Assembly (NCBI GenBank): GCA_964510925.1
Contig: CAZEDS010000004.1
Span: forward strand, 500 to 64,499
DNA: 64,000 nucleotides
From: an uncultured Candidatus Saccharibacteria bacterium
GTDB lineage: Bacteria > Patescibacteriota > WWE3 > 2-01-FULL-39-13
Direction of reading: 5' to 3'
Position numbers and translations under genes: made by a program. Shown here piece by piece: positions 19,793 through 57,017 of this stretch; the first letter of the stretch is position 1, and each line of letters starts with the position of its first letter. Below the pieces are notes generated by a model. That model was not told the origin of the DNA, made no database searches, and saw nothing but the letters and a program-made list of their open reading frames with translations.

Positions 19793-20511
19793 GATGATTT
19801 TATTGCCCTTGTTCCAATTATTACAGGAAAATACTGATCGTTATAGTCGAGCTCTTCTTTTGTTAAATCTTGAATTGCCATGCCAACCCAAAATGCCTGA
19901 CCAGATAGAACATTGCCGTATGATTTTACTAATAAGTTTTCTGGAGTAACGTGCTTACCAAAAGTATATTCAGATGAAGCGACTGTAAATCTCCAGCAAT
20001 GATTTTTTATGTTCCAAACTGGGCTTAAACATGGCATTGTTACTAGCAATGTTCCACCTGGTTTTAGGATTCTAAAACATTCTTTTACTGCTGCATGGAA
20101 ATCATCAATCATTACGTATGTTTGCGTAATAATTAAGCAGTCGTACGTATTGCTTTCGATCATGTCTAGGTTTCGCATATCTCCATAAATATTGGCTTCT
20201 TTGTTGTTTGTATCTATATCTAAAACGTCACTTTTTGTGACAAGATTCCCACCAAATTTTTCGGTATATTGGTTATCTGTTATTTCAAGACATACGCCTT
20301 TGATATATTCTTTGTTTTCTTCTAGAAACGCTTCAATATAATAGCGGTCGACAGGAGTTCCACGGTCAAATCCGTACATGATGCTTGCAGGTTTTAAGCT
20401 TCTTTCTGGCGCTTTAAACAAGAAATAATTAGATTTTGGTCTAATTGTTCTAACTATGTATCCACGGACTATTCTTAAAAAATTAAGAATTTTGTTTTTC
20501 ATTTTATTCAT
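19789..20511 (-). CDS. class I SAM-dependent methyltransferase
   Basis: ILKPGGTLLVTMP post-motif region and Rossmann-like layout. Overlaps its neighbours by 4 nt. Confidence 0.6.
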   Translation of the reverse strand: MNKMKNKILNFLRIVRGYIVRTIRPKSNYFLFKAPERSLKPASIMYGFDRGTPVDRYYIEAFLEENKEYIKGVCLEITDNQYTEKFGGNLVTKSDVLDIDTNNKEANIYGDMRNLDMIESNTYDCLIITQTYVMIDDFHAAVKECFRILKPGGTLLVTMPCLSPVWNIKNHCWRFTVASSEYTFGKHVTPENLLVKSYGNVLSGQAFWVGMAIQDLTKEELDYNDQYFPVIIGTRAIKSS

Positions 20512-21311
20512 AAAATTTTTTTAACTAAACCTCCTGCAAAACTTTTGACAAACCTTCTAAACTTTATGGAAGGTTCTAATATTGTTGTGGTAAATTCTCC
20601 AAAATCATGAGATTTATTGATTCCGATTCTTGGCAACAAGTATGGATTTGTATCTTTTGTAATTTCGTCATCATCCATTGAGATTGCAAATTCGTATCCT
20701 GCTTTTTTTACAGCATCAATTATTTCTGGAGTGTATCTTCCTCTTGGATATGAAAAAGCTCTAATTTTTGTATTGAAAGTTTTTTCTAAAATTTGTTTTG
20801 ACTCAAAAATTTCATTTTGTATATCTGCTTGAGTTAATTCCCAAAAATTTTTATGGGTTGAACTGTGTGATCCAATTTCCCAGCCATCTGCAATAAGTAA
20901 TTTAATTTCATCGTTAGTGAGAAACTCAAGTGAATTTTTTAATTGAGTTTTATCTGCGTTTGCATTATCTGCTATTAAAAATAGTATTGGCTTTATATTT
21001 TTTTCTTTTAAAAACTCTTTTATAGACAATATATCTTTGTATCCGTCATCAAATGTTAATAAGAATGAAGGGGTTTTAGGATTCACTGCCGTTCCATCTA
21101 ATATCTTTTTTATGCTATTTAAATTTAAAAGTTTATATTTGTAAAACAAAAAATTTATTTGTCTTTTGAAAACGTTAGCATCGATTGCATGATCCCAGTT
21201 GCTTTGAGATATTGAGTGATAACAAAGTATAAATGGTCCGATTTCTACAGGTCTCAACGTAGCAAGTGTCTTATATATTACTTTTCTTATTGTGTTAAAT
21301 AGTATGCTCAT
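20508..21311 (-). CDS. polysaccharide deacetylase (NodB homology domain)
   Basis: LTFDDGYKD canonical motif 1, plus a HSSTH region. Confidence 0.8.
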   Translation of the reverse strand: MSILFNTIRKVIYKTLATLRPVEIGPFILCYHSISQSNWDHAIDANVFKRQINFLFYKYKLLNLNSIKKILDGTAVNPKTPSFLLTFDDGYKDILSIKEFLKEKNIKPILFLIADNANADKTQLKNSLEFLTNDEIKLLIADGWEIGSHSSTHKNFWELTQADIQNEIFESKQILEKTFNTKIRAFSYPRGRYTPEIIDAVKKAGYEFAISMDDDEITKDTNPYLLPRIGINKSHDFGEFTTTILEPSIKFRRFVKSFAGGLVKKIL

Positions 21312-21312
21312 A

Positions 21313-22218
21313 TTATTTTCTAAGGTTTTTTGAACTAGTGACTATTTTCCAAGTATCTTTTTTTTCTGTTAAACCTAGCTTTGTTTTTATTACTATGTAA
21401 ATTGTTGTGATTGCATAAATGATTGCCATTAATGGCTTTTGTAAAAAAAGTTTTAGACCTTCTGAAGCAAATTCTTGTTTCGGAATTTTGAAATGCTGGT
21501 CAATGAATTCTCTATCAAATTGATTTGCTAATTTTTTGTTTACAGCAAAAAAACGCGAACTTTGTTTTATATGATCTGCCGGATTATCAGGTAGCTTAAT
21601 AAATACTTCTGCCTCATTTACATATTCATAATTAAAACCATTTTTTATACAAGTTAAATAGGAGTAGGCGTCTTCTGCAATACTTCCTTTGAACTCAAAT
21701 TGTTCATAAAACCTTTTTGAGAATGCTCTGTGTGATCCATGGCATGTGAAAATATTTTTTCCAGAATTGAATTTTGCAAAAGCATTTCTTCGTAGTTCTG
21801 ATCCAAAACATATTATTTTTTCGAAAAAGGTAGTTGGTTCAATCTCAAAAAGAGGACCGCAAACTAAATCTGCGCCATTATTTATGGCCTTTGCCATAGC
21901 ATTGATGACATTTTTATCTTTAATTTGTATATCTGCATTTAATAGAATCAAAATATCGCTACTACATTTTTTAATAATTTGGTTTTGTCTTGCACCTTGT
22001 CCTTCTCTAATTTGATTTTTTATTAGGACTACTTTTTCGTTGTTAAAATTTGTGACAATTTCGTCTGTTTTATCCTCACTTGCATCAGAAGATACTAATA
22101 TTTGATCTAACTCAAAGTCTATTTGATTTTGCTCGAGCAAATCGGCAATTAGATATCCGATATTGGCTTCTTCGTTATATGCTGGTATTCCAATTGTGAC
22201 TGTCGGTTTAGAGGTCAT
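21313..22218 (-). CDS. glycosyltransferase family 2
   Basis: TIGIPAYNEE ... SSDASEDKT ... and an N-terminal GT-A fold pattern. Confidence 0.8.
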   Translation of the reverse strand: MTSKPTVTIGIPAYNEEANIGYLIADLLEQNQIDFELDQILVSSDASEDKTDEIVTNFNNEKVVLIKNQIREGQGARQNQIIKKCSSDILILLNADIQIKDKNVINAMAKAINNGADLVCGPLFEIEPTTFFEKIICFGSELRRNAFAKFNSGKNIFTCHGSHRAFSKRFYEQFEFKGSIAEDAYSYLTCIKNGFNYEYVNEAEVFIKLPDNPADHIKQSSRFFAVNKKLANQFDREFIDQHFKIPKQEFASEGLKLFLQKPLMAIIYAITTIYIVIKTKLGLTEKKDTWKIVTSSKNLRK

Positions 22219-23122
22219 TTACGATTTGCTTTTTTGTTGAATTAACTAATGTCCAATTTGCTATAGCGGTCTTTTTAGATTCTTTATAAAAATATTTTGC
22301 GTAAAAGTTTAGTATGAAAATTACAGTACAGTGTAGAGGCCATCTTAAAAATGCTTGTAATTTATATTTGTACAACATTGATTTTGGAATTACATATTCT
22401 GGTAATATCCAATCACCAAAATAGCTAATCAAAGCTTTATCTTCTCTTTGGTATCGACTAATTTGCTTAATATAATCATTGCTTGTTGCTGGAAGTGTAA
22501 AAAGTGTGCCAGCTGATTTTGCCGATACGAATTTGCCACCGTCTCGTAGGCATATAAAATAATGGAATCCGATATCTGCCCAGACTGTTTCTGGGAACGG
22601 ATTCTTTTTGGCAAATTCATTTTTTAATGCATAAAGTTGTCCGTGGCAAGAGTAAACGCTGTTTCCATTTTTCAAATTTAGACGAACTTTGTCCCAAACT
22701 GATCTGCTAACATATACTGCTTGTTCAATAAAATTTTGTGGTTTTACTACTTTGGGTCCACCCGATGTATATACGACTTCTGAATTTTCGATGAATGGTT
22801 TTATTAAATTATCGAATGTATCATAGGTTGCAGGGATGACATCTGCGTCAACTAGGGCAACAATGTCTCCTTTGGCTATCTCAAATATTTCGTTAATTCG
22901 TTTAATTTTTCCTTTGCGATCAGTGCTATCAATTACTTTTATTTTAGGATCTTCGACCTCACTTGCTTTTTTGACTGTAGCATCTGAACTTCCATCTGAC
23001 ATTACAATTATTTCTAATAGTTCAAAATTAGTTTGCTGCTGCCTTAGTAATCTGTTTAGTAAGTTTTTAATATTTGCTTCTTCGTTATAAGCTGGGACGC
23101 CGATTGTAAGTGTAGGTTTCAT
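22208..23122 (-). CDS. glycosyltransferase family 2 (tandem paralog of the previous gene)
   Basis: TIGVPAYNEEANI ... MSDGSSDAT. N-terminus near-identical in pattern to the neighbouring GT2. Confidence 0.8.
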   Translation of the reverse strand: MKPTLTIGVPAYNEEANIKNLLNRLLRQQQTNFELLEIIVMSDGSSDATVKKASEVEDPKIKVIDSTDRKGKIKRINEIFEIAKGDIVALVDADVIPATYDTFDNLIKPFIENSEVVYTSGGPKVVKPQNFIEQAVYVSRSVWDKVRLNLKNGNSVYSCHGQLYALKNEFAKKNPFPETVWADIGFHYFICLRDGGKFVSAKSAGTLFTLPATSNDYIKQISRYQREDKALISYFGDWILPEYVIPKSMLYKYKLQAFLRWPLHCTVIFILNFYAKYFYKESKKTAIANWTLVNSTKKQIVNDL

Positions 23123-23126
23123 ATAA

Positions 23127-26100
23127 TTATTTTTGTTGTGTTGACGTTTCTGTTTTGTTAAATAATAAACTTGTAAAATTTGCTAAGTAATTTTTGTTTT
23201 TAATATTTTTTGCGATCTCGAGTTCTAAAATAGGTATTAATTTTAAAGCAGAGCCGTCCCATGTAAAATTTTTAGACCAAGCTAATGAATTATTTTGTAG
23301 GTTGGTTAAAAGTTCTGGATCTTCGATTATTTGTTTAATTCTTTTTGTAAAATCATTGACGCTTCCATATTTGACTAAGTATCCACTGTATTCGTGTTTA
23401 ACTGAATCTTTTAAACCTGGTACATTTGATGCAAGTACTGGCGTTCCACAAGAGTTTGCTTCAATTACTGAAATTCCCCAACCTTCCCAAATTGAAGGAT
23501 ATACAAAAATCCAAGCAGCTGACATGAGTTGGATTTTTTCTTCTTCTGTGACTTTGCCCAAAAATTTTATATGTTTTTCTAATTTTAATTTTTCAACAAT
23601 TTTTTGTAAGTGTGGGGTGTGGTCACCGAATCCAGCAATATTTAATTCAATGTTTGGAATTTCTTTTTTTAGTTTATCAATTGCATGAATTACTACTTCG
23701 ATAGATTTGTAAGATTTGATTCTGCCGAGATATAAAAGTGAAGGATGCTCAGTTTTTTTGCTTGTATAAAATTTAGATGATTCTGCACCAGGGTGAATAA
23801 TTTCAATTGCCTGATTTTTGCCTAGTCCAATTTTTATCATATCTTTTTTTGTCGAATCTGAAACAGTTATCATCTTGCAATTTTTATATACGATTGGCAT
23901 TATGTTAGATTCTAAAAACCTAGCAATATATGCAATTGGTTTTAAATGCAATGCAAGATCTAGCTCTTTTAAAATTATTTCTCGATGTACGTGGTGTACA
24001 AGACCGATAACAGGAGCGTCTGCATAAATAGGGGAGAAAAATGGGATTCCATTTTCTGAATCTATAACGACATCAAATTTTCCTCTGAATCTAAAAATGT
24101 AATAGATAAATGACCAAATATATACGGTGAATTGGCCACCTCTTCTTATTATGTAAATACCATCAATGGTTTCTCTACGTTTTGATTTTTGGTCATTTCC
24201 GCAGAATATAACGATAGACATTCCTTGTTTTTTTAAGCTTTTTGCAATTTCATGAACATAGGCTTCAGCACCACCTGCCCAAGTGTGTTTGGTATCTCTC
24301 CAGTTTAATATTAAAACACGCTTATTTTTATTTTCGATATGATCACTTGGAAGTTCTGAAAATAAATCTATAAAATCTTTTATATTGAGCCAAATTGTAA
24401 GAATATTTTTTTCATAATAATGAACTACAAAGGTCACCCCTAGGTTCAAAATTGAAAGAATAAAAATAGTATTAATAAAAGTTTGTAAGTTTGTTCCAAA
24501 TATAGAAAGAGCAGTAATCTGTGCCATTGCTATTACAAAGCTGATTATTGGGGTAATATAGTTTTTTCTGATTTGGTGGAATCCAATCACACAGCTTGAA
24601 AGTGTGAAGAATAATATTGCTAATGCATACTCTGGTAACAAGTAAGTTACAGGTACTATTTTTTGGCCTAATAAAATTGGAGCTGTTATATTTCCAAAAT
24701 ATCCAAAGAATAAATATGAAAAAAATCCGATGATTGCTGTAAACCCAAAAATCCAATAAAAACGTTGGCTGCTGTCTGCTTGTTCACCTTCACTCTTGCT
24801 TATAAATGGAACTAAAAACTGTCCAGCCAGTGAGCTTAAAAAGAATATCATTTTGCCTACTAGTGAAATCAACGCATAATATCCTGCATCGCTAGGTGAT
24901 AAATAATGTTTAGCCAAAATAATATCAATGCTAATAAATGCGATAACTGAAAATCTATAGATTACACCGCTTAAAAAAAATTCAGTAGGGAACTTTAATA
25001 TAATGTTAGAATTTTCAATTTGTTTATCTGTTTTGATTCTGCAAGCAAATACGTATCCGATTATTAGGGCCACAATCATTGATAATGGAATTGCATAATA
25101 CACAGAATCTTTTGATATATATGTATTGAGCAAATAAGTTAGAGCTAGTTTTGCAATTGGTTCCGATACAATTACAATGCTCAACAATTTGAATTTGTGT
25201 ACTCCATTAATATATCCATAATCGATTGATGAAAGTGCACCTATAATCCAAATCGGAGCAAATATAATAAATGGTATTACTGAACTTTCATTGAAAAAAC
25301 TTATTATAAATGGAGTTGCGATTAACCATGCGATGGCAAAAATTGTTGAGATTCCAAAAAATTTCTTTCGAGCATATCTCCAGAATCTGCCTATGATTTG
25401 GTCGAATTTCCCAAGAGAATATCCACTTTCGTATGCAACAGTTAACGATAATGAGCTAAAAAATAATGACGCAACAAATAAAAAGTTATTGAATAAACTT
25501 ATTAATCCAAAATCTTCGATGGTAAGGACTCTGCTCAGGTATGCGTTGCAAAGATAATTTAATGCATTACTAGCAAGTAATGCGATTATTAAAATAAATT
25601 CGCCATTTTTGTTGAGCTTATTAATCGCAAGAGCTAAGACTTTTATTTTTTTTTCTTCTTTTGGATTTGTTGTTACTGTTAGTTTTTCAGGTTCAATATT
25701 TGTAGCATTTTTTGGTTTATCTTTATTATTTTTTTTGAATAATGAAAATCTTTTTTTTTGGATAAGGTGAAGGCCGTGATTTGTTTTTTCCCAGTGATGC
25801 GGATTAAATATTAGCTGATAAAAGGCCATTACGGCGGCAAAAAACATTAATATCCAATAGAAAGGCACGAGAAAAACAAATTTCATTAATCCCCAATGAC
25901 CTCTTTTTGCACAGCCGATCATATAGTTATAAAGATAAATGAAATTACCAAATATCAATGAAATTGCGGCCATATAAAAAACTACAGTTGGGAACAGCGA
26001 TTCAATAAAAGGTGCAAGTTGGTTATAAAATACAAAATATGAAATTGTTGTTAGCCATAAAAATGGGTTGATTAAAATAAAGCTAATTCTGAGTCCAATT

Positions 26101-27902
26101 ATTAATTGAAATACAAAAGCATGTTTCCCATGTGCTTTAAAAAATTTAGCAGGGTTTCTCATGTGCACCAGATATGTTTGCATGTATCCTTTAATCCATC
26201 TTGATCGCTGTCTGATCCAATTTCGTGTGTTACTGTTTGCTTCTTCTAAAGTAGTTGAATCAATAATTGCGGTTGTGTAACCTAGTTTGAAAAGTCTAGA
26301 ACCAAGATCGCAGTCCTCAGTTACATTGAATGGATCCCAACCTTGTAATTCACGCAATTTTTTTGTTATGAAATGGTTGCTTGTTCCACCTAAAGGAATG
26401 ATCGTATTAATTGATTGGAGCCCAGGCAAAATAACATCAAACCAGAGTGAATATTCTGCAGTAAAAAAGCGTGTTAATAAATTGTGATTAGCGTTAAAGT
26501 AGTTTAATTTTGCTTGTACGCAAACTGTTTTTTCTCCAAGTTTGGTAAAGGCAAGATAGGCTTTTTTAAGTTGGTCTGGATCTGGTTTGTCTTCTGCATC
26601 ATAAATAACCACATATTCTCCATTTGCCCTTAAAAGTCCGTAATTACATGCTTTTGGCTTGGTCTTTGGCATTGAATGCGGTACAACCATTACTTTGAAA
26701 TACGAAGGTAATGTAATAGATTTTGCTGTTTCTATCGTTTCTAGATCATTAGCTTCTAATAGCAAAAGAACCTCAAGTTTATCTTTCGGCCAATTTAATG
26801 CCTCAATATGCTCCGCAAAAAAAGGCAAAACTTCTGATTCTTTGTAAAGTGGGCATAATACTGTATAAAGTGGCAAGGTTTTGTCATCTATTGCTGCGAT
26901 TTCATCCTTTTCAAACGTGAATTCTGGTGGGAAATGAAGACTTTTTAAAATCACATAAACATTAAAAAGCACATCTAAGAAGTAGATCGTGCTTAATATT
27001 GCAATGAAAATTAATGCGCATAAAAATGGATTGTAAATTATTGCTGCGATTAAGCCTATTCCAATTAATCCAAATGCTATTTTTTGAGATCTAACAAATG
27101 TATAAATTGCGGATTCTTTATGTGGAAGATGAGAGTGAGTTAAATATGCTTTTTTCTTATAAATGATACCTTTTTCAAAAGTATTCGGTTCATCAAGTTC
27201 GTATATTTTTTTAGGAGATAGTTTAACTTTTAACGCACACATTATAATTGCGTATGAAGTTTTTATTATCCCTACCTTTGAAGCACCATGCTTTCTGTCA
27301 CTGAATGTTATCGTTACCGAATCAAAGGTATAACCAAGTTCTCGTGCGGCTTCAAGCAAAGGAATGTCAAAAGTCCAAGGCGTAACGAGTTTTCTGTTAA
27401 TGTGGTTAATAATTTCTTTGCGAAAAATTTTTAGGCCAGATTGAATATCTACGTCCATACCTAAGAGCATTTTTCCAACTATAAAAGCGTTAACTTTTGA
27501 TAAAACGGCTCTTTCTCTAGAGAGGTTTTGAGTTTTGCGTTGTGCAATTACAACTCCAGTTTTAGCGTTTTCTTGGAGCTTTTTTACCATCTCTGGCAAA
27601 TGTTTAGGATGATATTGCAAATCGCCGTCAATAAATGCCACAAAATCAGCTGTTACTAGGTCTAGACCTTCTAAAATTGAATAACCTTTTCCGCCTTTTC
27701 CTTGCTTTTCATGAAGTATTACTGGATGGCTATCTTGCATTTTTTTAATATTTTCGATAGTTTTATCAGTGGATTGATCTACGATGAAGATTATTCTATA
27801 TTCTATGTTAGAGGGGGCGAGTGCCTGCTCAATGCTCAATACCATGTCTTTGATATTTTTTTCTTCGTTTTTTACGGGGACAATAATATCGATGACCGAC
27901 AT
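23127..27902 (-). CDS. 1591-aa multidomain fusion: GT2 (DPM1-like), processive GT2 (QxxRW), Wzx-like polysaccharide flippase, and GT4
   Basis: Domain 1: IIVPVKNEEKNI...FIDGDLQYHP. Domain 2: VLCPLYKESEV...VIYDAEDKPD...QRSRWIKG. Middle: about 12 TM segments resembling a Wzx N-terminus (NALNYLCNAYLSRVL). C-terminus: RVLILNWRD...EGWGISVIEANSCGTPVLASN (E-x7-E). Start moved to Met14 (27902). Confidence 0.75.
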   Translation of the reverse strand: MSVIDIIVPVKNEEKNIKDMVLSIEQALAPSNIEYRIIFIVDQSTDKTIENIKKMQDSHPVILHEKQGKGGKGYSILEGLDLVTADFVAFIDGDLQYHPKHLPEMVKKLQENAKTGVVIAQRKTQNLSRERAVLSKVNAFIVGKMLLGMDVDIQSGLKIFRKEIINHINRKLVTPWTFDIPLLEAARELGYTFDSVTITFSDRKHGASKVGIIKTSYAIIMCALKVKLSPKKIYELDEPNTFEKGIIYKKKAYLTHSHLPHKESAIYTFVRSQKIAFGLIGIGLIAAIIYNPFLCALIFIAILSTIYFLDVLFNVYVILKSLHFPPEFTFEKDEIAAIDDKTLPLYTVLCPLYKESEVLPFFAEHIEALNWPKDKLEVLLLLEANDLETIETAKSITLPSYFKVMVVPHSMPKTKPKACNYGLLRANGEYVVIYDAEDKPDPDQLKKAYLAFTKLGEKTVCVQAKLNYFNANHNLLTRFFTAEYSLWFDVILPGLQSINTIIPLGGTSNHFITKKLRELQGWDPFNVTEDCDLGSRLFKLGYTTAIIDSTTLEEANSNTRNWIRQRSRWIKGYMQTYLVHMRNPAKFFKAHGKHAFVFQLIIGLRISFILINPFLWLTTISYFVFYNQLAPFIESLFPTVVFYMAAISLIFGNFIYLYNYMIGCAKRGHWGLMKFVFLVPFYWILMFFAAVMAFYQLIFNPHHWEKTNHGLHLIQKKRFSLFKKNNKDKPKNATNIEPEKLTVTTNPKEEKKIKVLALAINKLNKNGEFILIIALLASNALNYLCNAYLSRVLTIEDFGLISLFNNFLFVASLFFSSLSLTVAYESGYSLGKFDQIIGRFWRYARKKFFGISTIFAIAWLIATPFIISFFNESSVIPFIIFAPIWIIGALSSIDYGYINGVHKFKLLSIVIVSEPIAKLALTYLLNTYISKDSVYYAIPLSMIVALIIGYVFACRIKTDKQIENSNIILKFPTEFFLSGVIYRFSVIAFISIDIILAKHYLSPSDAGYYALISLVGKMIFFLSSLAGQFLVPFISKSEGEQADSSQRFYWIFGFTAIIGFFSYLFFGYFGNITAPILLGQKIVPVTYLLPEYALAILFFTLSSCVIGFHQIRKNYITPIISFVIAMAQITALSIFGTNLQTFINTIFILSILNLGVTFVVHYYEKNILTIWLNIKDFIDLFSELPSDHIENKNKRVLILNWRDTKHTWAGGAEAYVHEIAKSLKKQGMSIVIFCGNDQKSKRRETIDGIYIIRRGGQFTVYIWSFIYYIFRFRGKFDVVIDSENGIPFFSPIYADAPVIGLVHHVHREIILKELDLALHLKPIAYIARFLESNIMPIVYKNCKMITVSDSTKKDMIKIGLGKNQAIEIIHPGAESSKFYTSKKTEHPSLLYLGRIKSYKSIEVVIHAIDKLKKEIPNIELNIAGFGDHTPHLQKIVEKLKLEKHIKFLGKVTEEEKIQLMSAAWIFVYPSIWEGWGISVIEANSCGTPVLASNVPGLKDSVKHEYSGYLVKYGSVNDFTKRIKQIIEDPELLTNLQNNSLAWSKNFTWDGSALKLIPILELEIAKNIKNKNYLANFTSLLFNKTETSTQQK

Positions 27903-27979
27903 AGTAATAAAATTAACACTAAACACCCAAGCCCAGGGCACTGGCTATAGGTTTAGATTATACAGGAAAATTCTGTTAG

Positions 27980-43798: not shown

Positions 43799-44932
43799 AT
43801 GGCAAGAATGAAAACTAATATAAGGCAAATAACAGCTAGGGGCAAAAACATTGAATTACCAGATTTTTATCCAGATGCTACAAGAGCAGTAATCCGTGGG
43901 CTTGAATCGCAAGATATCAAAAACGCAGGTATAAACGGCATAATTGTTAATACTTATCATTTGCTGTCGCAGCCAGGTGCCGATGTAATAGGCGAAATTG
44001 GTGGAGTGAAAAAACTAATGAATTATGATGGAACTGTAATTTCAGATTCTGGTGGTTTTCAAATGTTTTCATTGATTCATAAAAATAAATCATTAGGGAA
44101 AATTGATCGAGATACAGGTGTGACTTTTAACTTACATTCTAAAAGCGGAAAAAAGATCTACAACATCACTCCAGAAAAATGTATTCAAATTCAATTTGAC
44201 CTTGGAACAGACATCATGATTGTGCTTGATTATTTCACTCCGTTTGGAGCGAATCCAGATGAGATCGCCCGAAGCGTAACTTGGACAACTGAATGGGCTG
44301 CCAGATGCAAAGAAGAGTTTTTGAAACAGTGTCAAAAACGAGGATTAGATGATTCAACTCGTCCGCTGTTATTCGGCGTAGTTCAAGGTGCACATGATTT
44401 TAAAGAAAGAGAACGTAGTGCAACTGAATTAGAAAACATTGGTTTCGATGGATATGGGTTGGGAGGATGGACTTTTGATTCTACTGGAAAATTCGATCTA
44501 TCAATTATTGAGCATGTGGCTTCAGTAACTCCAGATTCAAAACCTAAATACGGATTAGGTGTAGGAACACCGCAAGATTTGGTTGATTGTATTGCTTTTG
44601 GATATGGGATTTTTGATTGTGTTTTGCCCACTCGAGATGCAAGACATAAACGTTTTTATAGATTTAATAAAGAGCCTTCGTTGATAACTAATATTTTTGA
44701 TGAAGAAAAAGAATCTTGGTATGAGTATTTATATATTGCACGTGAAAAATATATATCAGATACTTCACCTATAAGTGAATATTGCGATTGCTATACATGT
44801 AAAAATTATAGCTTAGCTTATTTGAACCATTTGTTTAAAATTGATGATACCTTGGCATTTAGACTAGCGACTATACATAATTTGAGATTTTATTCACAGG
44901 TAATAAATCTCGCTAGGCAGTCATTAAAATAA
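43799..44932 (+). CDS. tgt: queuine tRNA-ribosyltransferase
   Basis: DSGGFQMFSL. GLGVGTPQDLVDCIAFGYGIFDCVLPTRDARH. C-terminal Zn site CDCYTCKNYSLAYLNHL. Confidence 0.8.
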   Translation: MARMKTNIRQITARGKNIELPDFYPDATRAVIRGLESQDIKNAGINGIIVNTYHLLSQPGADVIGEIGGVKKLMNYDGTVISDSGGFQMFSLIHKNKSLGKIDRDTGVTFNLHSKSGKKIYNITPEKCIQIQFDLGTDIMIVLDYFTPFGANPDEIARSVTWTTEWAARCKEEFLKQCQKRGLDDSTRPLLFGVVQGAHDFKERERSATELENIGFDGYGLGGWTFDSTGKFDLSIIEHVASVTPDSKPKYGLGVGTPQDLVDCIAFGYGIFDCVLPTRDARHKRFYRFNKEPSLITNIFDEEKESWYEYLYIAREKYISDTSPISEYCDCYTCKNYSLAYLNHLFKIDDTLAFRLATIHNLRFYSQVINLARQSLK

Positions 44933-50220: not shown

Positions 50221-50551
50221 TTTTATCAATCTATAATGACCATTATAGGCGTTTTTGACTATCAAAATGATAACATACGTTTTATTTACTTTTAACCTTT
50301 ACCAGACCCTTTAGGGCTTGTCAGAACCAATTGTCTTAGCTATAATTCCTGTTCTAGTGTTCTAGACCGATTAATTGTTTGATACGGTTAGTTGACTAGT
50401 TTGCACTAAATAGTAAAATTTTAAAGTTCAAATCGAACATTGCTGGATACCTTAATCCATAGTAATTAAGGGTTAAATCAAATTTAACTGTTATCGCAAT
50501 ATTTACATAAAGTTGGAGTGTTTGTTTTTGAACACATTGAAAGGAATTTAT

Positions 50552-51025
50552 ATGGATAAAAAAATATTATTAACTAAAACAGGATACGAGGATTTAAAGA
50601 TAGAGCTTGATAAGCTTATAAATGTTGAATACCCACATGTTTTGGAGCAGTTGAATCTTGCTCGATCGATGGGTGATCTTAAGGAAAATGGTATGTTTAC
50701 CGTTATGAAAGAAAAACAACTTCAAGTACAAGGTCGAATGGCTGAACTCGAAGAGATTCTTAAGAATGCGGAAATCGTAGACAATAGCGATTCATCAAAT
50801 AGCTCGAAACGAGTTGTTAGTTTTGGCTCAAAAGTCCATTTAGAGTCTGAAAAACAAAAAGTTGCTTACTCAATTGTTGGTTCAGAAGAGGTTAATGCTA
50901 CACTAGGTAAAATCTCGCACGAGTCTCCAATTGGACAAGCTTTGCTAGGAAAAGTTGTCGGAGATGTTGTTGAGGTTAAGATTCCGATGGGTACTATCAA
51001 ATACAAGATTATTGATATTGCCTGA
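50552..51025 (+). CDS. greA: transcription elongation factor GreA
   Basis: N-terminal coiled-coil LTKTGYEDLKIELDKL and C-terminal ISHESPIGQALLGKVVGDVVEV. Start at internal Met14 with an AAGGA RBS. Confidence 0.8.
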   Translation: MDKKILLTKTGYEDLKIELDKLINVEYPHVLEQLNLARSMGDLKENGMFTVMKEKQLQVQGRMAELEEILKNAEIVDNSDSSNSSKRVVSFGSKVHLESEKQKVAYSIVGSEEVNATLGKISHESPIGQALLGKVVGDVVEVKIPMGTIKYKIIDIA

Positions 51026-51050
51026 TTTTATGATATTTTGATATAGAGCA

Positions 51051-51515
51051 ATGACAAAAGGACAAACATTTATAACAGAAGAAGGTTACAAAAAATTAAA
51101 GGAAGAACTAGAGGCTTTGAGAAATGAATCTAGAGTTACGGTTGCTAAAAAAATACAAGAAGCTAGAGAGATGGGCGGAGTAGAAGAAAACCCAGCATAC
51201 GATGTTGCTGTAGAGCAATTTGGTTTTATCGAAGGTCGAATTTCAGAAATCGAAGATGTATTAGCAAATACAACAATTGCTGAAGTCGATAAGAGCGCTA
51301 GTGTTGTTGAATTAGGTGCAAACGTTGTTGTAGAATTTTCTGGTAAAAAAGATACCTTTAGAATTGTTAGTTCAGTTGAGGCCGATCCTACAAAGAGATT
51401 GATTTCAGTAGAATCTCCAGTTGGAAAAGCTTTGCTTGGTGCCAAAAAAGGTGATGTAGTTGTTGTTAAAACACCAGTCATCGTGGCCCATTACAAAATA
51501 ATTGAAATAAAATGA
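51051..51515 (+). CDS. GreA/GreB-family transcription elongation factor (second tandem copy)
   Basis: ITEEGYKKLKEELEALRN and ISVESPVGKALLGAKKGDVVVV. Confidence 0.7.
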   Translation: MTKGQTFITEEGYKKLKEELEALRNESRVTVAKKIQEAREMGGVEENPAYDVAVEQFGFIEGRISEIEDVLANTTIAEVDKSASVVELGANVVVEFSGKKDTFRIVSSVEADPTKRLISVESPVGKALLGAKKGDVVVVKTPVIVAHYKIIEIK

Positions 51516-52922: not shown

Positions 52923-54446
52923 ATGAATGATCATAATACTTCAAACCAAGATTCACAGGCCGAAGGCCAACTTCCATTAGAAAGTTTAAGACAAATCCGA
53001 ATTGAAAAACTAAAAAAACTACAAGAACTCGGACTCGAACCATTTCCATCCAAATCAAATAGAACTCATAACATATCTGAAATAGTAGAAAATTTTGATC
53101 AACATGAAAATAATGAGGTAACAATTTGTGGTCGTTTAATGTCATGGCGAGAACACGGTGCATTAATTTTTGGTGATGTTCGTGATGCGAGCGGCAAAAT
53201 ACAACTTTATATAAAAACAGATGAAGTTAAGCCATTTGATAAAAATTCTCAAAATTTAGGATTAGAAAACTTTGGGTTATTAGATATCGGTGATTTTGTT
53301 GAAGCAACAGGTACAGTAACAAAAACAAAACGTGGTGAGATTTCTGTTTTGTTGCAGACGATTCGAATTTTAACCAAATCTATTAGACCAATGCCAAGCG
53401 CACATTTTGGTCTTAAAGATGAAGAAGATCGATATCGACAAAGATATGTTGATTTAGTTTTGAATCCTGAACTTAGAGATTTGTTTTTGAAAAAATCAAA
53501 ATTTTGGAATGCTGTCCGAAATTTTATGGTAAGCAAAAACTTTATCGAAGTAGAAACTCCAGTTTTAGAAAATAGTGCAGGAGGTGCAGATGCAACTCCA
53601 TTTGTAACTCATCATAACGCATTAGATATTGATGTATATTTGAGAATTTCTATGGGAGAGCTTTGGCAAAAAAGATTAATGGTAGGCGGTTTTGAAAAAA
53701 CATTTGAGCTAGGCAGACAATTCCGTAACGAAGGAATGAGTCGTGAACATTTGCAAGATTACACTCAAATGGAATTTTATTGGGCATATGCAAATTATAA
53801 AGATTCAATGGCCTTAGTCGAAGAAATGTATAAGTATGTTGCACAAGAAACTTTTGGTACTACAGTATTTAAAATAAATGGTTTCGATGTTGACTTGAAT
53901 AAAACTTGGGAACAAATAAATTATCGAGACATAATATTAGATCGACATAAAATTGATATCATGACAGCAACAAAAGATGATTTAGCAGCAAAAGCTCGAG
54001 AGCTAAAAGCTGAATTTGATTCAACTGCGGATCGTGGTCGTTTGATTGATTTAATTTGGAAAAACATTCGTAAAACAATTTCTGGTCCAGCATTTTTAGT
54101 CGGTCATCCAGTTGAAGTTTCACCATTGGCAAAGAGAGATTTATCAAGCCCAGATTTTACAGAACGCTATCAAATAATTTTAGCAGGAAGCGAAATGGGC
54201 AATGGGTATTCTGAGCTTAATGATCCAATCGATCAATCAGAGCGTTTTGAATCTCAACAAAAATTACGAGATGCAGGTGACTCAGAGGCTCAGATGCATG
54301 ATTATGATTTTGTTCGAGCACTTGAATACGGAATGCCTCCAGTTACAGGTTTTGGCGTGAGCGAAAGATTATTTTCATTTTTAGCGGATAAAACAATCCG
54401 TGAATGCGTACTGTTTCCTTTGTTAAAGCCTGAAGAGCATGCTTGA
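52923..54446 (+). CDS. lysS: lysyl-tRNA synthetase, class II
   Basis: OB-fold N-domain (VTICGRLMSWREHGALIFGDVRD). Motif 2 FRNEGMSREH. Motif 3 region GYSELNDP. Confidence 0.9.
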   Translation: MNDHNTSNQDSQAEGQLPLESLRQIRIEKLKKLQELGLEPFPSKSNRTHNISEIVENFDQHENNEVTICGRLMSWREHGALIFGDVRDASGKIQLYIKTDEVKPFDKNSQNLGLENFGLLDIGDFVEATGTVTKTKRGEISVLLQTIRILTKSIRPMPSAHFGLKDEEDRYRQRYVDLVLNPELRDLFLKKSKFWNAVRNFMVSKNFIEVETPVLENSAGGADATPFVTHHNALDIDVYLRISMGELWQKRLMVGGFEKTFELGRQFRNEGMSREHLQDYTQMEFYWAYANYKDSMALVEEMYKYVAQETFGTTVFKINGFDVDLNKTWEQINYRDIILDRHKIDIMTATKDDLAAKARELKAEFDSTADRGRLIDLIWKNIRKTISGPAFLVGHPVEVSPLAKRDLSSPDFTERYQIILAGSEMGNGYSELNDPIDQSERFESQQKLRDAGDSEAQMHDYDFVRALEYGMPPVTGFGVSERLFSFLADKTIRECVLFPLLKPEEHA

Positions 54447-54969
54447 TTTATTTGAGGCGGATCCACTAAATGAAAATCCACAACTTAATATAGGAGATTT
54501 TATTCCTGACGTATTAAGATTGAGTGTTGATGAGCTTAAATCTTTAAAATCTTTGTATGAGGGGTTATATAGACCAGCATTAACAGATTTTGGTATTAAT
54601 CATTCATTTGTGCAGTTTGGATCAATTTATTTTTCTGATTTGAATCCTTGGATGATTAATCGAGTACGAAGTGGTATGCAACTTACGCAAAGCAAAATTT
54701 CTCAATATGATCCAACTGCGATTTGTTGTAGAGTCTTGGGAATTGATGGATGTAGTTTAACTGATCGCGAGTTATATATCGAATTAACACATTATCCTAA
54801 GGATAGTGAATCGAATACTCTTCGTGCACATATATCTCGTAGGGAGAATGGAACTATTGAAGCTGGAAGTTTACATGTTTTTGTGCCTGATATTTATTCT
54901 GAAACAGGTTGGAGAAATCTGAAAGAAGGAATTTTAAGGCAATCATCATATACTTATGAGTTTAAATAA
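54439..54969 (+). CDS. hypothetical protein
   Basis: ORF overlapping the lysS stop. No motif. Confidence 0.35.
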   Translation: MLDLFEADPLNENPQLNIGDFIPDVLRLSVDELKSLKSLYEGLYRPALTDFGINHSFVQFGSIYFSDLNPWMINRVRSGMQLTQSKISQYDPTAICCRVLGIDGCSLTDRELYIELTHYPKDSESNTLRAHISRRENGTIEAGSLHVFVPDIYSETGWRNLKEGILRQSSYTYEFK

Positions 54970-55558
54970 ACAAACCGCAATTGACCTTTTGCATAGCCAT
55001 ATGCAAAACATAAATTTAAGAAGGCACTGTTATGGCGTATCTGTATCAATGGGTGCAATTTATGATTATCTTCAATCAAAAGGAATGCTATTACCGACTG
55101 AACCGGTAAAAGAAGTTTGGGAGATTTTTGGAGTGTTACATGATTCTGATTACGAAATTACAAAAGATGATTGGACGAAACATACTTTAATAACATTGGA
55201 TTGGTTAAAAGAGATTGGTTACGATGTTGATTCTGATCCACTTTGTTTAGCAATCAAATCTCATAATAATAAAATTACAAATTTACGAGAGCCAGAAACT
55301 CAAATGGAATGGGCTCTGGAATGTTGCGATGAATTGAGTGGCTTTATAGTTGCCTGTGCATTAGTTATGCCAGACAAAAAATTAAAAGATGTCGATTTTG
55401 AATCTGTTAAAAAGAAATTTAGATCAAACGGCTTTGCAAAAGCCGTTGATCGTGAGCAAATTGCACAATGTTCACAACGATTGGGCATTGAGCTTGATGA
55501 TTTTATAAAAATAGTTTTAGATGGAATGAAATCAAATTCCGATTGGTTAGGATTATGA
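54956..55558 (+). CDS. HD-domain phosphohydrolase
   Basis: An H...HD pattern (LHSHM ... GVLHDSDYE). Confidence 0.55.
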   Translation: MSLNKQTAIDLLHSHMQNINLRRHCYGVSVSMGAIYDYLQSKGMLLPTEPVKEVWEIFGVLHDSDYEITKDDWTKHTLITLDWLKEIGYDVDSDPLCLAIKSHNNKITNLREPETQMEWALECCDELSGFIVACALVMPDKKLKDVDFESVKKKFRSNGFAKAVDREQIAQCSQRLGIELDDFIKIVLDGMKSNSDWLGL

Positions 55559-56520
55559 AAGCAGCAATTGAATATTCTAAAATCCAAGAGTTTTCAGAGC
55601 AATCAGGTATTTCATTAAAGAAAATATTTAAACTTGTTGAGCTCTTATCATTGAGCGAATCTGGAATTCAAAATTCAGAATTAATTAGGTCTACAGGATT
55701 ATCAAAGCAATCAATCAATTTATTTGAAAAAGCATTCACTCATTTTTTCAATCCAAATGTTAACGGTATTATCAGCTTTAATATAAAAGGAAAAGATTTA
55801 TATCAAACCTTAAAAACCCATCAATATATAAATGAATTAAAATTTAGCCGTGATGAATTAAATTTTATTGAATTTGCATTAGAGCAAAGGCCAGGTGCAC
55901 AAAGGGATTTTGATCAATTTTATGCTGATTTAGAAACTCCAATAAAAAGAGCCAAATATATGTCATCAAATTTTGATTTGCAAAATAAAAAAATTTTATT
56001 TATTGGTGATGATGACTTTGGTTCAATTGTTGCAGCAATAACAAAATTGCCTAGTCAAATTACAGTTTTAGAAATTGATAAAAATTTATTAAACGTAATA
56101 AAAAAAATCTCAGAAAAAAATAAATTGAATATTCAAACAGTTGAGTACGATGCTTTAAAAAAATTAGAGCCAAAATTTTATAATGCATTCGATATTGTTT
56201 TTATTGATCCGCCATACACTGAATCAGGCGTGAATTTATTTTTATCACGTGCAATTGATGCTTTAAAGCAAACTAATAATTGCGCAAAAATTTATTTGAA
56301 TTTTGGTGCAAGTGATTTGGCTCGTGAACGATATATTGGTATCCAAGAAATTATTAATAAATCAGGATTATATATGAGATCAATTAATGATAATTTTAGT
56401 CATTATTATGGAGCAGAGTCTATCGGTAGCCATTCGACTTTGTATGAACTTGAACGGACGCCAAAAACAAAGGCAATGATCTCAGGATCTTTTTCTGGGA
56501 AGATCTATACGAATGATTAG
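55543..56520 (+). CDS. DUF43 / BpsA-like putative aminopropyltransferase (methyltransferase fold) with N-terminal wHTH-like region
   Basis: LFIGDDDFGSIV GDDD motif, FIDPPYT, and an N-terminal helix-turn-helix-like segment. Convergent with the SAM decarboxylase gene. Confidence 0.5.
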   Translation: MVRIMKAAIEYSKIQEFSEQSGISLKKIFKLVELLSLSESGIQNSELIRSTGLSKQSINLFEKAFTHFFNPNVNGIISFNIKGKDLYQTLKTHQYINELKFSRDELNFIEFALEQRPGAQRDFDQFYADLETPIKRAKYMSSNFDLQNKKILFIGDDDFGSIVAAITKLPSQITVLEIDKNLLNVIKKISEKNKLNIQTVEYDALKKLEPKFYNAFDIVFIDPPYTESGVNLFLSRAIDALKQTNNCAKIYLNFGASDLARERYIGIQEIINKSGLYMRSINDNFSHYYGAESIGSHSTLYELERTPKTKAMISGSFSGKIYTND

Positions 56521-56529
56521 GTCGATATT

Positions 56530-56856
56530 TTAGCTATTATTTTTATAAAATATCTCATTGATAACTGTAGTAAATTTTTGGGTTGTTAATCCTTTCTTAC
56601 AACATACTAGGTCTATGTGAACAAAATTGTATTCTGGCCAATAGTGGAGTGCTATATGTGATTCGCTTAGGATTCTAATTGTTGTATATCCGTGTGGGTC
56701 AAATTTATGCTCGAGTTTACCTAAAATTGTTAGATCAAGGTTTTGGCAAATTGTGTCTAATGCTATATCTAGCTCATTATTTGTATATTGCTTTTTGGTT
56801 GAAATTTCTTGAGTAAATTGTTGGTAGTATGGCTTCATTTTTTTGTTTGTAGACAT
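56530..56856 (-). CDS. speH: S-adenosylmethionine decarboxylase proenzyme (small pyruvoyl-dependent SpeH type)
   Basis: SESHIALHYWPE self-cleavage site (ES-H). 108 aa. Confidence 0.8.
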   Translation of the reverse strand: MSTNKKMKPYYQQFTQEISTKKQYTNNELDIALDTICQNLDLTILGKLEHKFDPHGYTTIRILSESHIALHYWPEYNFVHIDLVCCKKGLTTQKFTTVINEIFYKNNS

Positions 56857-56954
56857 TATACCGGTTTTCTTTGATATAATGTTGTAAAGCGTTGAAAAAG
56901 TCTAGCAGCTTTGGAGCTTAATTCTGTTGATACCTCGAGCGTCCCAGTTTTGGG

Positions 56955-56990
56955 AAAGGGGAGTGGCACCGCGGATCTTTTGATTCGTCT
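56955..56990 (+). promoter_or_regulatory. T-box-like motif (GGGGAGUGGCACCGCGG) plus short hairpin in the serS leader
   Basis: Partial match to the T-box consensus AGGGUGGNACCGCGG, with an AG insertion. The UGGC bulge would pair with a G discriminator, as in tRNA-Ser. Stem I was not confidently identified. Confidence 0.25.
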
Positions 56991-57017
56991 CCTCTAGTTC
57001 ATATTTTTCATTTATAT

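What the first reader, a model, noticed from the sequence alone, without database searches (positions are those of the whole stretch)
55543..56856. Polyamine pair: pyruvoyl-type SAM decarboxylase convergent with a DUF43/BpsA-like GDDD protein
The 108-aa protein has the SESHIALHYWPE self-processing site of small SpeH-type AdoMetDC. The facing 325-aa protein has a GDDD motif (LFIGDDDFGS) and FIDPPYT in a methyltransferase-like fold. It resembles DUF43 branched-chain polyamine aminopropyltransferases such as BpsA of hyperthermophilic archaea, rather than classical spermidine synthase. If real, this implies synthesis of an unusual (branched?) polyamine in this small-genome organism. An N-terminal wHTH-like segment is atypical.
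Basis: partly seen in the sequence, partly recalled or inferred. Interest (0 to 1): 0.55.

Follow-up and report, generated by a model that had tools for sequence, protein, structure and literature searches.

The report
BpsA-like aminopropyltransferase paired with SAM decarboxylase
A small-genome, apparently mesophilic candidate-phyla-radiation (CPR) bacterium carries a conserved two-gene module, a self-processing SAM decarboxylase and a divergent relative of the "thermophile-only" branched-polyamine synthase BpsA, that most likely adds aminopropyl groups to a polyamine, although the product is unknown.

Summary
Both ORFs and every quoted motif are real. The 108-aa protein is a class-1b pyruvoyl AdoMetDC/SpeH. 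It passes the Pfam cutoff, keeps the equivalents of Ser63/His68/Cys83, and its model superposes on T. maritima AdoMetDC. It has none of the four residues diagnostic of ornithine-decarboxylase derivatives.

The facing protein is probably 321 aa, starting at ATG 55555. It is a PF01861/BpsA-family enzyme (147 bits, against 32 bits for the best methyltransferase profile), and BpsA crystal structures are its best fold matches. GDDD and the mappable acceptor-site residues are conserved.

The N-terminal winged-helix-like domain is a normal part of BpsA architecture, not atypical.

The protein differs from characterised BpsA in several ways:
- It falls in a separate clade, with 30% identity to Tk-BpsA.
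- It lacks the C-terminal acidic aminopropyl-carrier tail and ends in a different conserved module (GAESIGS…IYT).
- It has DPPY where Tk-BpsA has DPPE.
- Its host is predicted to be a mesophile.

About 40 of the 47 closest Patescibacteria loci keep an AdoMetDC gene within 130 bp, in four arrangements. About 10% of family representatives are fused to AdoMetDC.

A dcSAM-dependent aminopropylation module is therefore well supported. A branched product is plausible but unproven. No other polyamine gene lies in the 64 kb.

The parts
55555..56520 (+). BpsA-family (PF01861) aminopropyltransferase-like gene, 321 aa. The mechanical ORF starts at TTG 55543 and gives 325 aa.
   Evidence: Pfam BpsA_C 147 bits, cutoff 27. 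PDB sequence search: Tk-BpsA 5xnc E=3.7e-22, and 3.3e-41 with the family profile. AF2 model pLDDT 94.8. Foldseek top hits are BpsA structures at E~1e-21.
55555..55880 (+). N-terminal winged-helix-like domain plus helical linker (about aa 1-109)
   Evidence: Secondary structure of the model: H2-17, H21-33, H40-47, H51-60, short strands, H77-88, H99-109. The region aligns collinearly with the Tk-BpsA N-terminal domain and is covered by the full-length Foldseek alignments.
56005..56016 (+). GDDD motif (G151-D154), equivalent to Tk-BpsA G157-D160. This is the site that positions the dcSAM aminopropyl group.
   Evidence: Residue mapping. The motif is invariant or nearly invariant in the family alignment. 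Its role is described in the review PMC12979288.
56206..56217 (+). DPPY motif (D218-Y221). D218 corresponds to acceptor-site residue Tk D225, and Tyr replaces Tk E228.
   Evidence: DPPY occurs in 114 of 116 short-form family members.
56395..56517 (+). Clade-specific C-terminal module FSHY-GAESIGS-...-TPKTK-...-IYTND (aa 281-321). It has no acidic cluster.
   Evidence: PDB alignments stop at the Tk Y290 equivalent. The tail is 37 aa long with 1 D/E in the last 15 residues. Residues Y284, A287, I290, G291, S294, T302 and Y318 are invariant. The modelled tail is coil with high pLDDT.
56521..56529 (.). 9-bp spacer between the two convergent stop codons, with no terminator-like hairpin
56530..56856 (-). 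Class-1b pyruvoyl AdoMetDC (SpeH/SpeD-type) proenzyme, 108 aa. Predicted beta chain is residues 1-65 and alpha chain residues 66-108.
   Evidence: Pfam AdoMet_dc 66 bits, cutoff 25. T. maritima AdoMetDC E=4e-9. AF2 pLDDT 88.5. Foldseek top hits are T. maritima and A. aeolicus AdoMetDC, TM 0.72, rmsd 2.4 A.
56659..56661 (-). Codon of Ser66, the predicted self-cleavage site (E65|S66) and pyruvoyl precursor. His71 and Cys86 correspond to T. maritima H68 and C83.
   Evidence: Alignment to 1tlu, numbering, codon read directly from the sequence. The residue roles come from PMC10407285.

Best explanation
The two genes form a self-contained aminopropylation module. The steps are as follows. (1) The 108-aa proenzyme cleaves itself between Glu65 and Ser66, which creates an N-terminal pyruvoyl group. 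It then decarboxylates S-adenosylmethionine to dcSAM. This step is inferred from conserved residues and fold. (2) The 321-aa BpsA-family enzyme binds dcSAM in its Rossmann domain, with the aminopropyl amine held by D153/D154 of GDDD. It then transfers the aminopropyl group to an amine nitrogen of a polycationic acceptor. That acceptor sits in a pocket lined by D120, D218 (of DPPY), D254 and Y284, and MTA is released. This step is inferred from residue conservation with Tk-BpsA. (3) The enzyme lacks the C-terminal acidic cluster that carries the aminopropyl group in Tk-BpsA. Transfer therefore probably proceeds either directly, in the SN2 manner of SpeE, or through a different carrier in the clade-specific GAESIGS...IYT module. 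This step is speculative. The acceptor and product are unresolved. I slightly favour the view that this is the organism's only aminopropyltransferase, elaborating an imported or separately made di- or triamine, over the view that it is an orthodox N4-bis(aminopropyl)spermidine synthase.
For: Family and fold assignments. Mapped BpsA donor and acceptor site residues are conserved: D126->D120, GDDD->G151-D154, D225->D218, E259->D254, Y290->Y284. They are invariant or nearly invariant across 30 CPR homologs. AdoMetDC residues S66, H71 and C86 and the WPE motif are present. Genetic linkage: about 40 of the 47 closest loci have an AdoMetDC homolog within 130 bp, in four arrangements. Most overlap the stop codon by 8 nt on the same strand. 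The pair is convergent in the window, L007, L024, L066, L081 and L082, upstream in L034, and fused in L045, L046 and L075. Fusions: 22 of 210 family proteins held carry an AdoMetDC domain, and 21 of those 22 have intact GDDD and DPPY. The pair stays together while flanking genes differ. The window's AdoMetDC has none of the 4 SpeDC (ornithine decarboxylase) diagnostic residues and keeps both prolines found in bona fide AdoMetDCs.
Against: No biochemical data exist for any member of this clade. The 108-aa protein scores below NCBIfam's equivalog cutoff for AdoMetDC (61.3 against 75.65) and is 15-25 residues shorter than characterised enzymes. An arginine-decarboxylase derivative cannot be strictly excluded, because such enzymes diverge little from AdoMetDC. 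The acidic carrier tail of BpsA is absent, so the known mechanism cannot simply be transferred. No source of an acceptor polyamine and no polyamine transporter is seen in the 64 kb. Seven of the 47 close loci lack an AdoMetDC homolog within 10 kb.
Confidence: 0.7

Rival explanations
1. It is an orthodox branched-chain polyamine synthase. Like Tk/Tt BpsA, it converts spermidine via N4-aminopropylspermidine to N4-bis(aminopropyl)spermidine by a ping-pong mechanism, and the CPR bacterium accumulates branched polyamines.
For: Best profile, sequence and fold matches are to BpsA. The residues that activate the secondary amine in Tk-BpsA (D225, E259, Y290) have conserved equivalents. An invariant Tyr (Y318, in IYT) could stand in for Tk Y316. 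Thermophilic Methanothermococcus homologs fall in the same broad clade and share the same C-terminal motifs.
Against: The protein is in a clade separate from all characterised BpsA enzymes, at 30% identity. The acidic carrier cluster (Tk E339, D342-E345; 'DEE' in Tt) has no counterpart. According to the review, that C-terminal region determines substrate and product specificity. No SpeE or other route to spermidine is visible in the window. The host is predicted to be a mesophile, whereas BCPAs are described as thermophile-specific.
Confidence: 0.2
2. The 108-aa protein is a neofunctionalised SpeD homolog, a pyruvoyl arginine or ornithine decarboxylase. It would supply the acceptor amine (agmatine or putrescine) rather than the donor dcSAM.
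For: Such enzymes are widespread, including in the candidate phyla radiation. The protein scores below the NCBIfam AdoMetDC equivalog cutoff. One relative is labelled 'S-adenosylmethionine/arginine decarboxylase-like' by JGI.
Against: It has none of the 4 ODC-diagnostic residues: R, E, Y and H where SpeDC has Q, T, F and Y. This rests on my alignment to the SpeDC domains in Fig. S5. Both prolines of bona fide AdoMetDCs are retained, and loss of a conserved Pro marks the arginine decarboxylases. It is the only SpeD homolog next to, or fused with, a dcSAM-type aminopropyltransferase in dozens of genomes. In the logic of that same paper, this context marks the bona fide AdoMetDC. Without it the transferase would have no donor.
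Confidence: 0.07
3. The 321-aa protein does not act on a free polyamine. It would be a methyltransferase, or an aminopropyl or aminocarboxypropyl transferase acting on RNA, DNA, protein or a 7-deazaguanine intermediate.
For: The DPPY motif is typical of N-methyltransferases. There are weak secondary hits to RsmD, METTL5 and N6-adenine methyltransferase profiles. A folE-queD-queE-queC set lies directly downstream of the pair in about 6-10 related loci from WWE3, Woesebacteria and Amesbacteria. A sister class is fused to a KsgA-like domain.
Against: BpsA_C outscores every methyltransferase profile by more than 100 bits. GDDD, which pairs with the dcSAM amine, is intact here. In the KsgA-like-fused class it is mostly GDHD, so that class is a different branch. 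The acidic acceptor-pocket residues are conserved, which suits a cationic amine and not a nucleic acid. The obligatory AdoMetDC partner argues for dcSAM as donor. The window contains no preQ0 genes.
Confidence: 0.08

Closest known systems
Thermococcus kodakarensis BpsA (TK1691; PDB 5XNC/5XNF/5XNH), N4-bis(aminopropyl)spermidine synthase, EC 2.5.1.128
   Same: Same Pfam family. Same two-domain architecture: an N-terminal wHTH-like domain and a Rossmann catalytic domain. GDDD is conserved, along with the D126, D225, E259(D) and Y290 equivalents.
   Different: 30% identity and a separate clade. No C-terminal acidic aminopropyl-carrier cluster; instead a conserved GAESIGS...TPKTK...IYT end. DPPY where Tk-BpsA has DPPE. 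No CxxC segment in the linker. The host is a mesophile. The gene is coupled or fused to AdoMetDC.
Thermus thermophilus BpsA (PDB 6J27), the 'generalist' BCPA synthase
   Same: Family, fold and GDDD.
   Different: 26% identity over the catalytic domain. Tt-BpsA has a DEE-containing acidic C-terminal motif that is absent here. Tt-BpsA reads 'DPVE' at the DPPx position.
Thermotoga maritima AdoMetDC/SpeH (PDB 1TLU), class 1b pyruvoyl enzyme
   Same: ES|H processing site, equivalents of His68 and Cys83, the WPE motif and the fold (TM 0.72, rmsd 2.4 A).
   Different: 108 aa against 130 aa. The alpha chain is about 25 residues shorter and ends after one helix. It scores below the NCBIfam equivalog cutoff.
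speD-speE operons and SpeD-SpeDC fusion proteins (Li et al. 2023, PMC10407285)
   Same: The same logic applies: an AdoMetDC gene clustered or fused with the enzyme of the adjacent pathway step.
   Different: The partner here is a BpsA-family enzyme, not SpeE or a second SpeD domain. BpsA-AdoMetDC fusions are not mentioned in that paper ('bpsa' occurs 0 times).
(D/N)PPY amino-methyltransferases (RsmD, METTL5, N6-adenine MTases)
   Same: Rossmann fold and a DPPY motif that positions a target nitrogen. There are weak profile and fold hits.
   Different: Scores are more than 100 bits lower than for BpsA_C. The GDDD donor motif and the AdoMetDC partner point to dcSAM, not SAM.

Membership tests
BpsA family (Pfam PF01861, formerly DUF43) | Profile match above the curated cutoff, and better than methyltransferase or spermidine-synthase profiles | tested here: met
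   147.4 bits against a cutoff of 27. The next best are Cons_hypoth95 at 31.6 bits and Spermine_synth at 18.7 bits, below its cutoff.
BpsA family (Pfam PF01861, formerly DUF43) | Two-domain architecture: N-terminal helical/wHTH-like domain plus C-terminal Rossmann domain | tested here: met
   Foldseek full-length alignments to 2qm3, 5xnc and 6j27 at E 1e-18 to 1e-21. hhalign is collinear with Tk residues 7-291.
BpsA family (Pfam PF01861, formerly DUF43) | GDDD motif (Tk G157-D160), indispensable for catalysis | tested here: met
   G151-D154 align exactly. The motif is invariant or nearly invariant in the clade.
Functional BCPA synthase (BpsA sensu stricto, EC 2.5.1.128) | Acceptor-activating residues D225, E259, Y290 and Y316 | tested here: inconclusive
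   The D218, D254 and Y284 equivalents are present. Y316 lies beyond the alignable region.
Functional BCPA synthase (BpsA sensu stricto, EC 2.5.1.128) | Flexible C-terminal acidic cluster acting as aminopropyl carrier (Tk E339, D342-E345; DEE in Tt) | tested here: not met
   The protein ends 37 residues after the Y290 equivalent, with 1 D/E in the last 15. The family median is 2. No sequence alignment to the Tk/Tt C-termini is found.
Functional BCPA synthase (BpsA sensu stricto, EC 2.5.1.128) | Orthology with the characterised Tk/Tt enzymes | tested here: not met
   In a neighbour-joining tree of catalytic domains, Tk, Pf and Tt form a separate clade. Identity is 26-30%. The tree is rough and has no bootstrap support.
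Functional BCPA synthase (BpsA sensu stricto, EC 2.5.1.128) | Occurrence in thermophiles or hyperthermophiles | tested here: not met
   F(IVYWREL)=0.394, about 34 C, CvP bias 1.1 (the formula is recalled from Zeldovich et al. 2007). Identical genes occur in aquatic metagenomes. Relatives come from groundwater, aquifer sediment, river water and digesters.
Functional BCPA synthase (BpsA sensu stricto, EC 2.5.1.128) | Produces N4-aminopropylspermidine or N4-bis(aminopropyl)spermidine from spermidine and dcSAM | not testable with these tools
   Requires an enzyme assay or polyamine profiling.
Class 1b pyruvoyl AdoMetDC (SpeD/SpeH, PF02675) | Profile match above the curated cutoff | tested here: met
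   Pfam 66.2 bits against a cutoff of 25. However, the NCBIfam equivalog TIGR03330 gives 61.3 bits, below its cutoff of 75.65.
Class 1b pyruvoyl AdoMetDC (SpeD/SpeH, PF02675) | Processing and catalytic residues S63, H68 and C83 (T. maritima numbering) | tested here: met
   S66, H71 and C86 align. They are conserved in the partner family.
Class 1b pyruvoyl AdoMetDC (SpeD/SpeH, PF02675) | AdoMetDC fold | tested here: met
   Foldseek top five hits are T. maritima and A. aeolicus AdoMetDC, TM 0.71-0.74.
Class 1b pyruvoyl AdoMetDC (SpeD/SpeH, PF02675) | Conserved Pro that separates bona fide AdoMetDC from SpeDA arginine decarboxylases | tested here: inconclusive
   The position is shown only in a figure that is not held. 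Both prolines of the central region (FDPHG and YWPE) are present in the window protein.
SpeDC pyruvoyl ornithine decarboxylases | Four diagnostic residues Gln, Thr, Phe and Tyr in the central region | tested here: not met
   When aligned to the SpeDC domains of Fig. S5, the window has R, E, Y and H at those positions. The positions are my reading of an OCR-derived alignment.
Class 1b pyruvoyl AdoMetDC (SpeD/SpeH, PF02675) | Decarboxylates SAM | not testable with these tools
   Requires complementation of E. coli delta-speD or an in vitro CO2-release assay.

The most novel reading that the evidence does not exclude
The window protein represents a large, uncharacterised mesophilic branch of the BpsA family found in CPR/Patescibacteria and Myxococcota, with about 10% of members fused to AdoMetDC. 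This branch would work without the acidic carrier tail, using its own GAESIGS...IYT module. It would serve as a third kind of general aminopropyltransferase, alongside SpeE and thermophile BpsA. Its product would be either a polyamine not expected in mesophiles (branched or otherwise unusual) or, in lineages where the pair sits beside preQ0 genes, an aminopropylated non-polyamine acceptor.
Probability: 0.3. Interest if true: 0.75.

Novelty: new variant of a known kind. Interest (0 to 1): 0.55.

Why it matters
[quoted passage not shown] Here the BpsA family has a large branch in groundwater and aquatic CPR bacteria and in Myxococcota. The family as a whole has 2,106 representatives at 50% clustering. 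The branch is tightly coupled to AdoMetDC, and sometimes fused to it.

If these enzymes are active, there are two consequences:
- Some minimal-genome, probably host-dependent bacteria invest in tailoring polyamines rather than merely importing them.
- Either branched polyamines are not a thermophile signature, or the BpsA scaffold supports a second mechanism and product range without the acidic carrier tail.

Both alternatives can be tested directly with two small genes and established E. coli delta-speD/delta-speE assays. The BpsA-AdoMetDC fusions are also natural candidates for dcSAM channelling.

Tried and rejected
- Exact look-ups of the 325-aa and 321-aa products found nothing. The 108-aa product did locate 13 contigs.
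- NCBIfam returned no BpsA-type model at E<=1, only far-sub-threshold rRNA methyltransferase hits. It could not add to the Pfam result.
- The large protein search with the 108-aa query returned only 3 relatives, because of the word-index limit. I built a local HMM from the fetched loci instead.
- Literature searches for BpsA/DUF43 in CPR or mesophiles, and for polyamine genes in Patescibacteria, found nothing relevant.
- Neighbours of the homologs in Methanothermococcus and Myxococcota gave no polyamine clue.
- The two upstream ORFs, although overlapping in an operon-like string, do not travel with the pair. orf200 appears in one other locus, 5 kb away. They have no informative PDB or Pfam match.
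- I rejected the idea that the pair is a chance adjacency or horizontally acquired cargo. Composition is uniform, the flanks are housekeeping genes, and linkage is conserved in four arrangements.
- I could not inspect 3-D positions of the C-terminal tail residues, because model coordinates are not exposed.
Full report
**Observation.** The window has an ORF at 55543..56520 (+, 325 aa from a TTG) and one at 56530..56856 (-, 108 aa), and they are convergent. All three quoted motifs occur verbatim in the translations: SESHIALHYWPE, LFIGDDDFGS and FIDPPYT. The two stop codons are 9 bp apart, and no terminator-like hairpin lies between them. The likely true start of the longer gene is the ATG at 55555. 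It has an AGGA 4 nt upstream and an ATGA overlap with the stop of the upstream 200-aa ORF. Independent gene calls on other contigs give a 321-aa product. I use 321-aa numbering below.

**Host and context.** GC content is uniform at about 0.33, and the pair lies between the lysyl- and seryl-tRNA synthetase genes. It is therefore ordinary chromosomal DNA. The closest relatives are Candidate Phyla Radiation bacteria of the Microgenomates group: Woesebacteria, Daviesbacteria, Amesbacteria, Shapirobacteria, and WWE3.

**The small protein.**
- Pfam AdoMet_dc scores 66 bits against a cutoff of 25. T. maritima AdoMetDC is the best PDB sequence hit.
- Ser66, His71 and Cys86 align with T. maritima Ser63 (pyruvoyl precursor), His68 and Cys83. 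These residues are required for self-processing and catalysis.
- An AlphaFold model (pLDDT 88.5) superposes best on T. maritima and A. aeolicus AdoMetDC (TM 0.72, rmsd 2.4 A).
- There are caveats. The protein is short: its alpha chain is about 43 residues, against about 68 in T. maritima. It also scores below NCBIfam's equivalog cutoff (61.3 against 75.65).

Li et al. 2023 showed that many SpeD homologs, including some in CPR, are really ornithine or arginine decarboxylases. I therefore aligned the window protein to the bona fide and ODC-type domains shown in their Fig. S5. At the four ODC-diagnostic positions (Gln, Thr, Phe, Tyr) the window has Arg, Glu, Tyr and His. Both prolines of the AdoMetDC central region are retained. 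An ODC derivative is thus excluded. An ADC derivative is unlikely but not formally excluded.

**The larger protein.**
- Pfam BpsA_C scores 147 bits against a cutoff of 27. The best methyltransferase profile scores 32 bits, and the spermidine-synthase profile falls below its cutoff.
- PDB sequence searches find only BpsA entries at high significance. Tk-BpsA gives E=3.7e-22, or 3.3e-41 with a 30-sequence family profile.
- The AlphaFold model is very confident (pLDDT 94.8). [quoted passage not shown]
- hhalign of the family profile against Tk-BpsA residues 1-293 is collinear from residue 7 to 291. I reconstructed that Tk fragment from the alignment. The N-terminal winged-helix-like domain is therefore a standard feature of the family, not an oddity.

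**Residue mapping onto Tk-BpsA.** The 2026 review lists the Tk-BpsA functional residues. The mapping is:

| Tk-BpsA | Window protein (321-aa numbering) |
|---|---|
| D126 | D120 |
| G157-D160 (GDDD) | G151-D154 |
| D225 | D218 |
| E259 | D254 |
| Y290 | Y284 |

All of these are invariant or nearly invariant in the CPR clade. This supports a dcSAM donor site and an acidic pocket for a cationic amine acceptor.

**Differences from characterised BpsA.**
1. Every sequence alignment to Tk or Tt BpsA stops at the Y290 equivalent. The window protein then has only 37 more residues, forming a clade-specific and strongly conserved module (GAESIGS...TPKTK...IYT-end). That module has 1 acidic residue in its last 15. 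In Tk-BpsA the C-terminal acidic cluster (E339, D342-E345) is the experimentally mapped aminopropyl carrier of the ping-pong mechanism. C-terminal swaps also change product specificity. A defining mechanistic feature is therefore absent.
2. The motif is DPPY rather than DPPE.
3. In a rough neighbour-joining tree, Tk, Pf and Tt BpsA form a clade apart from the one containing the window protein, other CPR forms, fusions, Myxococcota and Methanococcales homologs. Identity to Tk-BpsA is 29.9% over 177 catalytic-domain columns.
4. Proteome composition predicts a mesophile: F(IVYWREL)=0.394, about 34 C. The formula is recalled from Zeldovich et al. 2007. Identical genes occur in aquatic metagenomes, and relatives come from groundwater, aquifer sediment, river water and digesters. 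[quoted passage not shown]

**Functional linkage.** I fetched 80 related genomic loci and searched them with a local AdoMetDC HMM.
- Among the 47 closest Patescibacteria loci, about 40 have an AdoMetDC homolog within 130 bp of the BpsA-like gene.
- Most are directly downstream on the same strand, with an 8-nt overlap.
- The pair is convergent in the window, L007, L024 and L066, and also in the two nearest relatives L081 and L082, whose outer flanking genes differ.
- The AdoMetDC gene is upstream in L034 and fused in L045, L046 and L075.
- A profile search of 1.84 billion representative proteins finds 2,106 family members.
- Of the 210 family proteins I hold, 22 carry an AdoMetDC domain, and 21 of those 22 keep GDDD and DPPY.

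Conservation in four arrangements, plus recurrent fusion, is strong evidence that the two proteins act in consecutive steps. This in turn supports dcSAM production by the small protein.

**What remains open.** The acceptor and product are unknown. A Pfam scan of about 55 ORFs across the 64 kb found no SpeE, no PLP or pyruvoyl arginine or ornithine decarboxylase, no agmatinase, no CASDH/CASDC, no homospermidine synthase and no PotABCD. Whole genomes could not be surveyed. Neighbours in Myxococcota and Methanothermococcus were uninformative.

About 6-10 related loci from WWE3, Woesebacteria and Amesbacteria have a folE-queD-queE-queC set immediately downstream of the pair. This may be plain synteny or a hint at a non-polyamine acceptor. 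The window lacks these genes.

A sister class of 513-605 aa is fused to a KsgA-like domain and mostly has GDHD in place of GDDD. It probably does something different and should not be used to infer the window protein's function.

**Conclusion.** The best-supported mechanism has two steps. The AdoMetDC self-processes and makes dcSAM. The BpsA-family enzyme then transfers the aminopropyl group to a polycationic amine, without the acidic carrier tail of thermophile BpsA. My confidence in this is about 0.7. An orthodox branched-polyamine synthase is a live alternative (about 0.2). A decarboxylase of arginine or ornithine (about 0.07) and a non-polyamine acceptor (about 0.08) are less likely.

I found no publication on this clade. 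Databases label some members 'bis-aminopropyl spermidine synthase family protein'. I rate it a new variant of a known kind, of moderate interest, and directly testable.

Noticed in passing
window 56883-56995 (+): The leader of the seryl-tRNA synthetase gene matches the Rfam T-box model end to end, at only 45.9 bits (gathering score 93; E=3e-9 in a 301-nt search). It is a strongly reduced element of about 113 nt that keeps the GGAGUGGCACCGCG T-box sequence. It was missed by the gathering-threshold scan of the whole window.
   Followed up: partly
L001, L004, L011, L017, L026, L038 (also FolE alone in L006, L016, L021); e.g. L011 11395-14322: In related WWE3, Woesebacteria and Amesbacteria loci, a folE-queD-queE-queC (preQ0/7-deazaguanine) gene set follows the BpsA-like/AdoMetDC pair directly. 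A NodU-type carbamoyltransferase and glycosyltransferases are often nearby. The window has only a TGT gene (43799-44932), 11 kb away.
   Followed up: partly
P0097, P0100, P0123, P0151, P0175 and about 30 further representatives; probably the Nocardiopsis loci L065-L080: A 513-605-aa class of the family carries a C-terminal domain of about 250 aa. The domain is weakly KsgA/RrnaAD-like (30 bits in P0097) and ends in a conserved motif NAxREALIRY...MTKxEAR. GDDD is mostly replaced by GDHD (24 of 34). The function is unknown and the donor or chemistry is probably different.
   Followed up: partly
P0062, P0064, P0122, P0129 and others (22 fusions): In BpsA-AdoMetDC fusion proteins the pyruvoyl-precursor Ser is kept, but its neighbours change from S-E-S-H to S-[NTQA]-S-[NS]. 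Self-cleavage would leave the whole transferase attached to the beta chain. One protein (P0124) has the domains in the opposite order.
   Followed up: no
L018 and L038 (CP055308.1, Woesebacteria Ch104a, complete 802-kb genome): This tiny genome carries two copies of the BpsA-like/AdoMetDC pair, with almost identical AdoMetDC sequences. One copy lies next to the preQ0 genes.
   Followed up: no
L052 5456-6661, P0165, P0146: Methanococcales members of the clade have a CxxC segment in the linker, as Tk-BpsA does, plus an extra C-terminal zinc-ribbon (CxxC...CxC) after the LYTG motif.
   Followed up: no
window 52923-56520: lysS, orf176, orf200 and the BpsA-like gene overlap one another (8-nt, 14-nt and 4-nt ATGA overlaps), forming an operon-like string. 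The two small ORFs have no Pfam or PDB match. orf200 has an H...HD-like pattern and does not co-occur with the pair elsewhere.
   Followed up: yes
window 474-1949 (+) and 1953-3449 (-): A 491-aa protein combines a partial thymidylate-synthase-like region with a PterinBD-DUF4346 domain. It lies next to a 498-aa radical SAM protein.
   Followed up: no
window 23127-27941 (-): A 1604-aa protein fuses GT2, GT2, a Polysacc_synt flippase-like region and a GT4 domain. It heads a run of glycosyltransferase, deacetylase, methyltransferase and SDR genes (17827-27941).
   Followed up: no
window 50513-51515 (+); 7730-8047 (+); 10600-11739 (+): Three further features: two tandem GreA/GreB paralogs, a 105-aa RRM_1 (eukaryote-type RNA recognition motif) protein, and a TMEM43-family membrane protein.
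   Followed up: no
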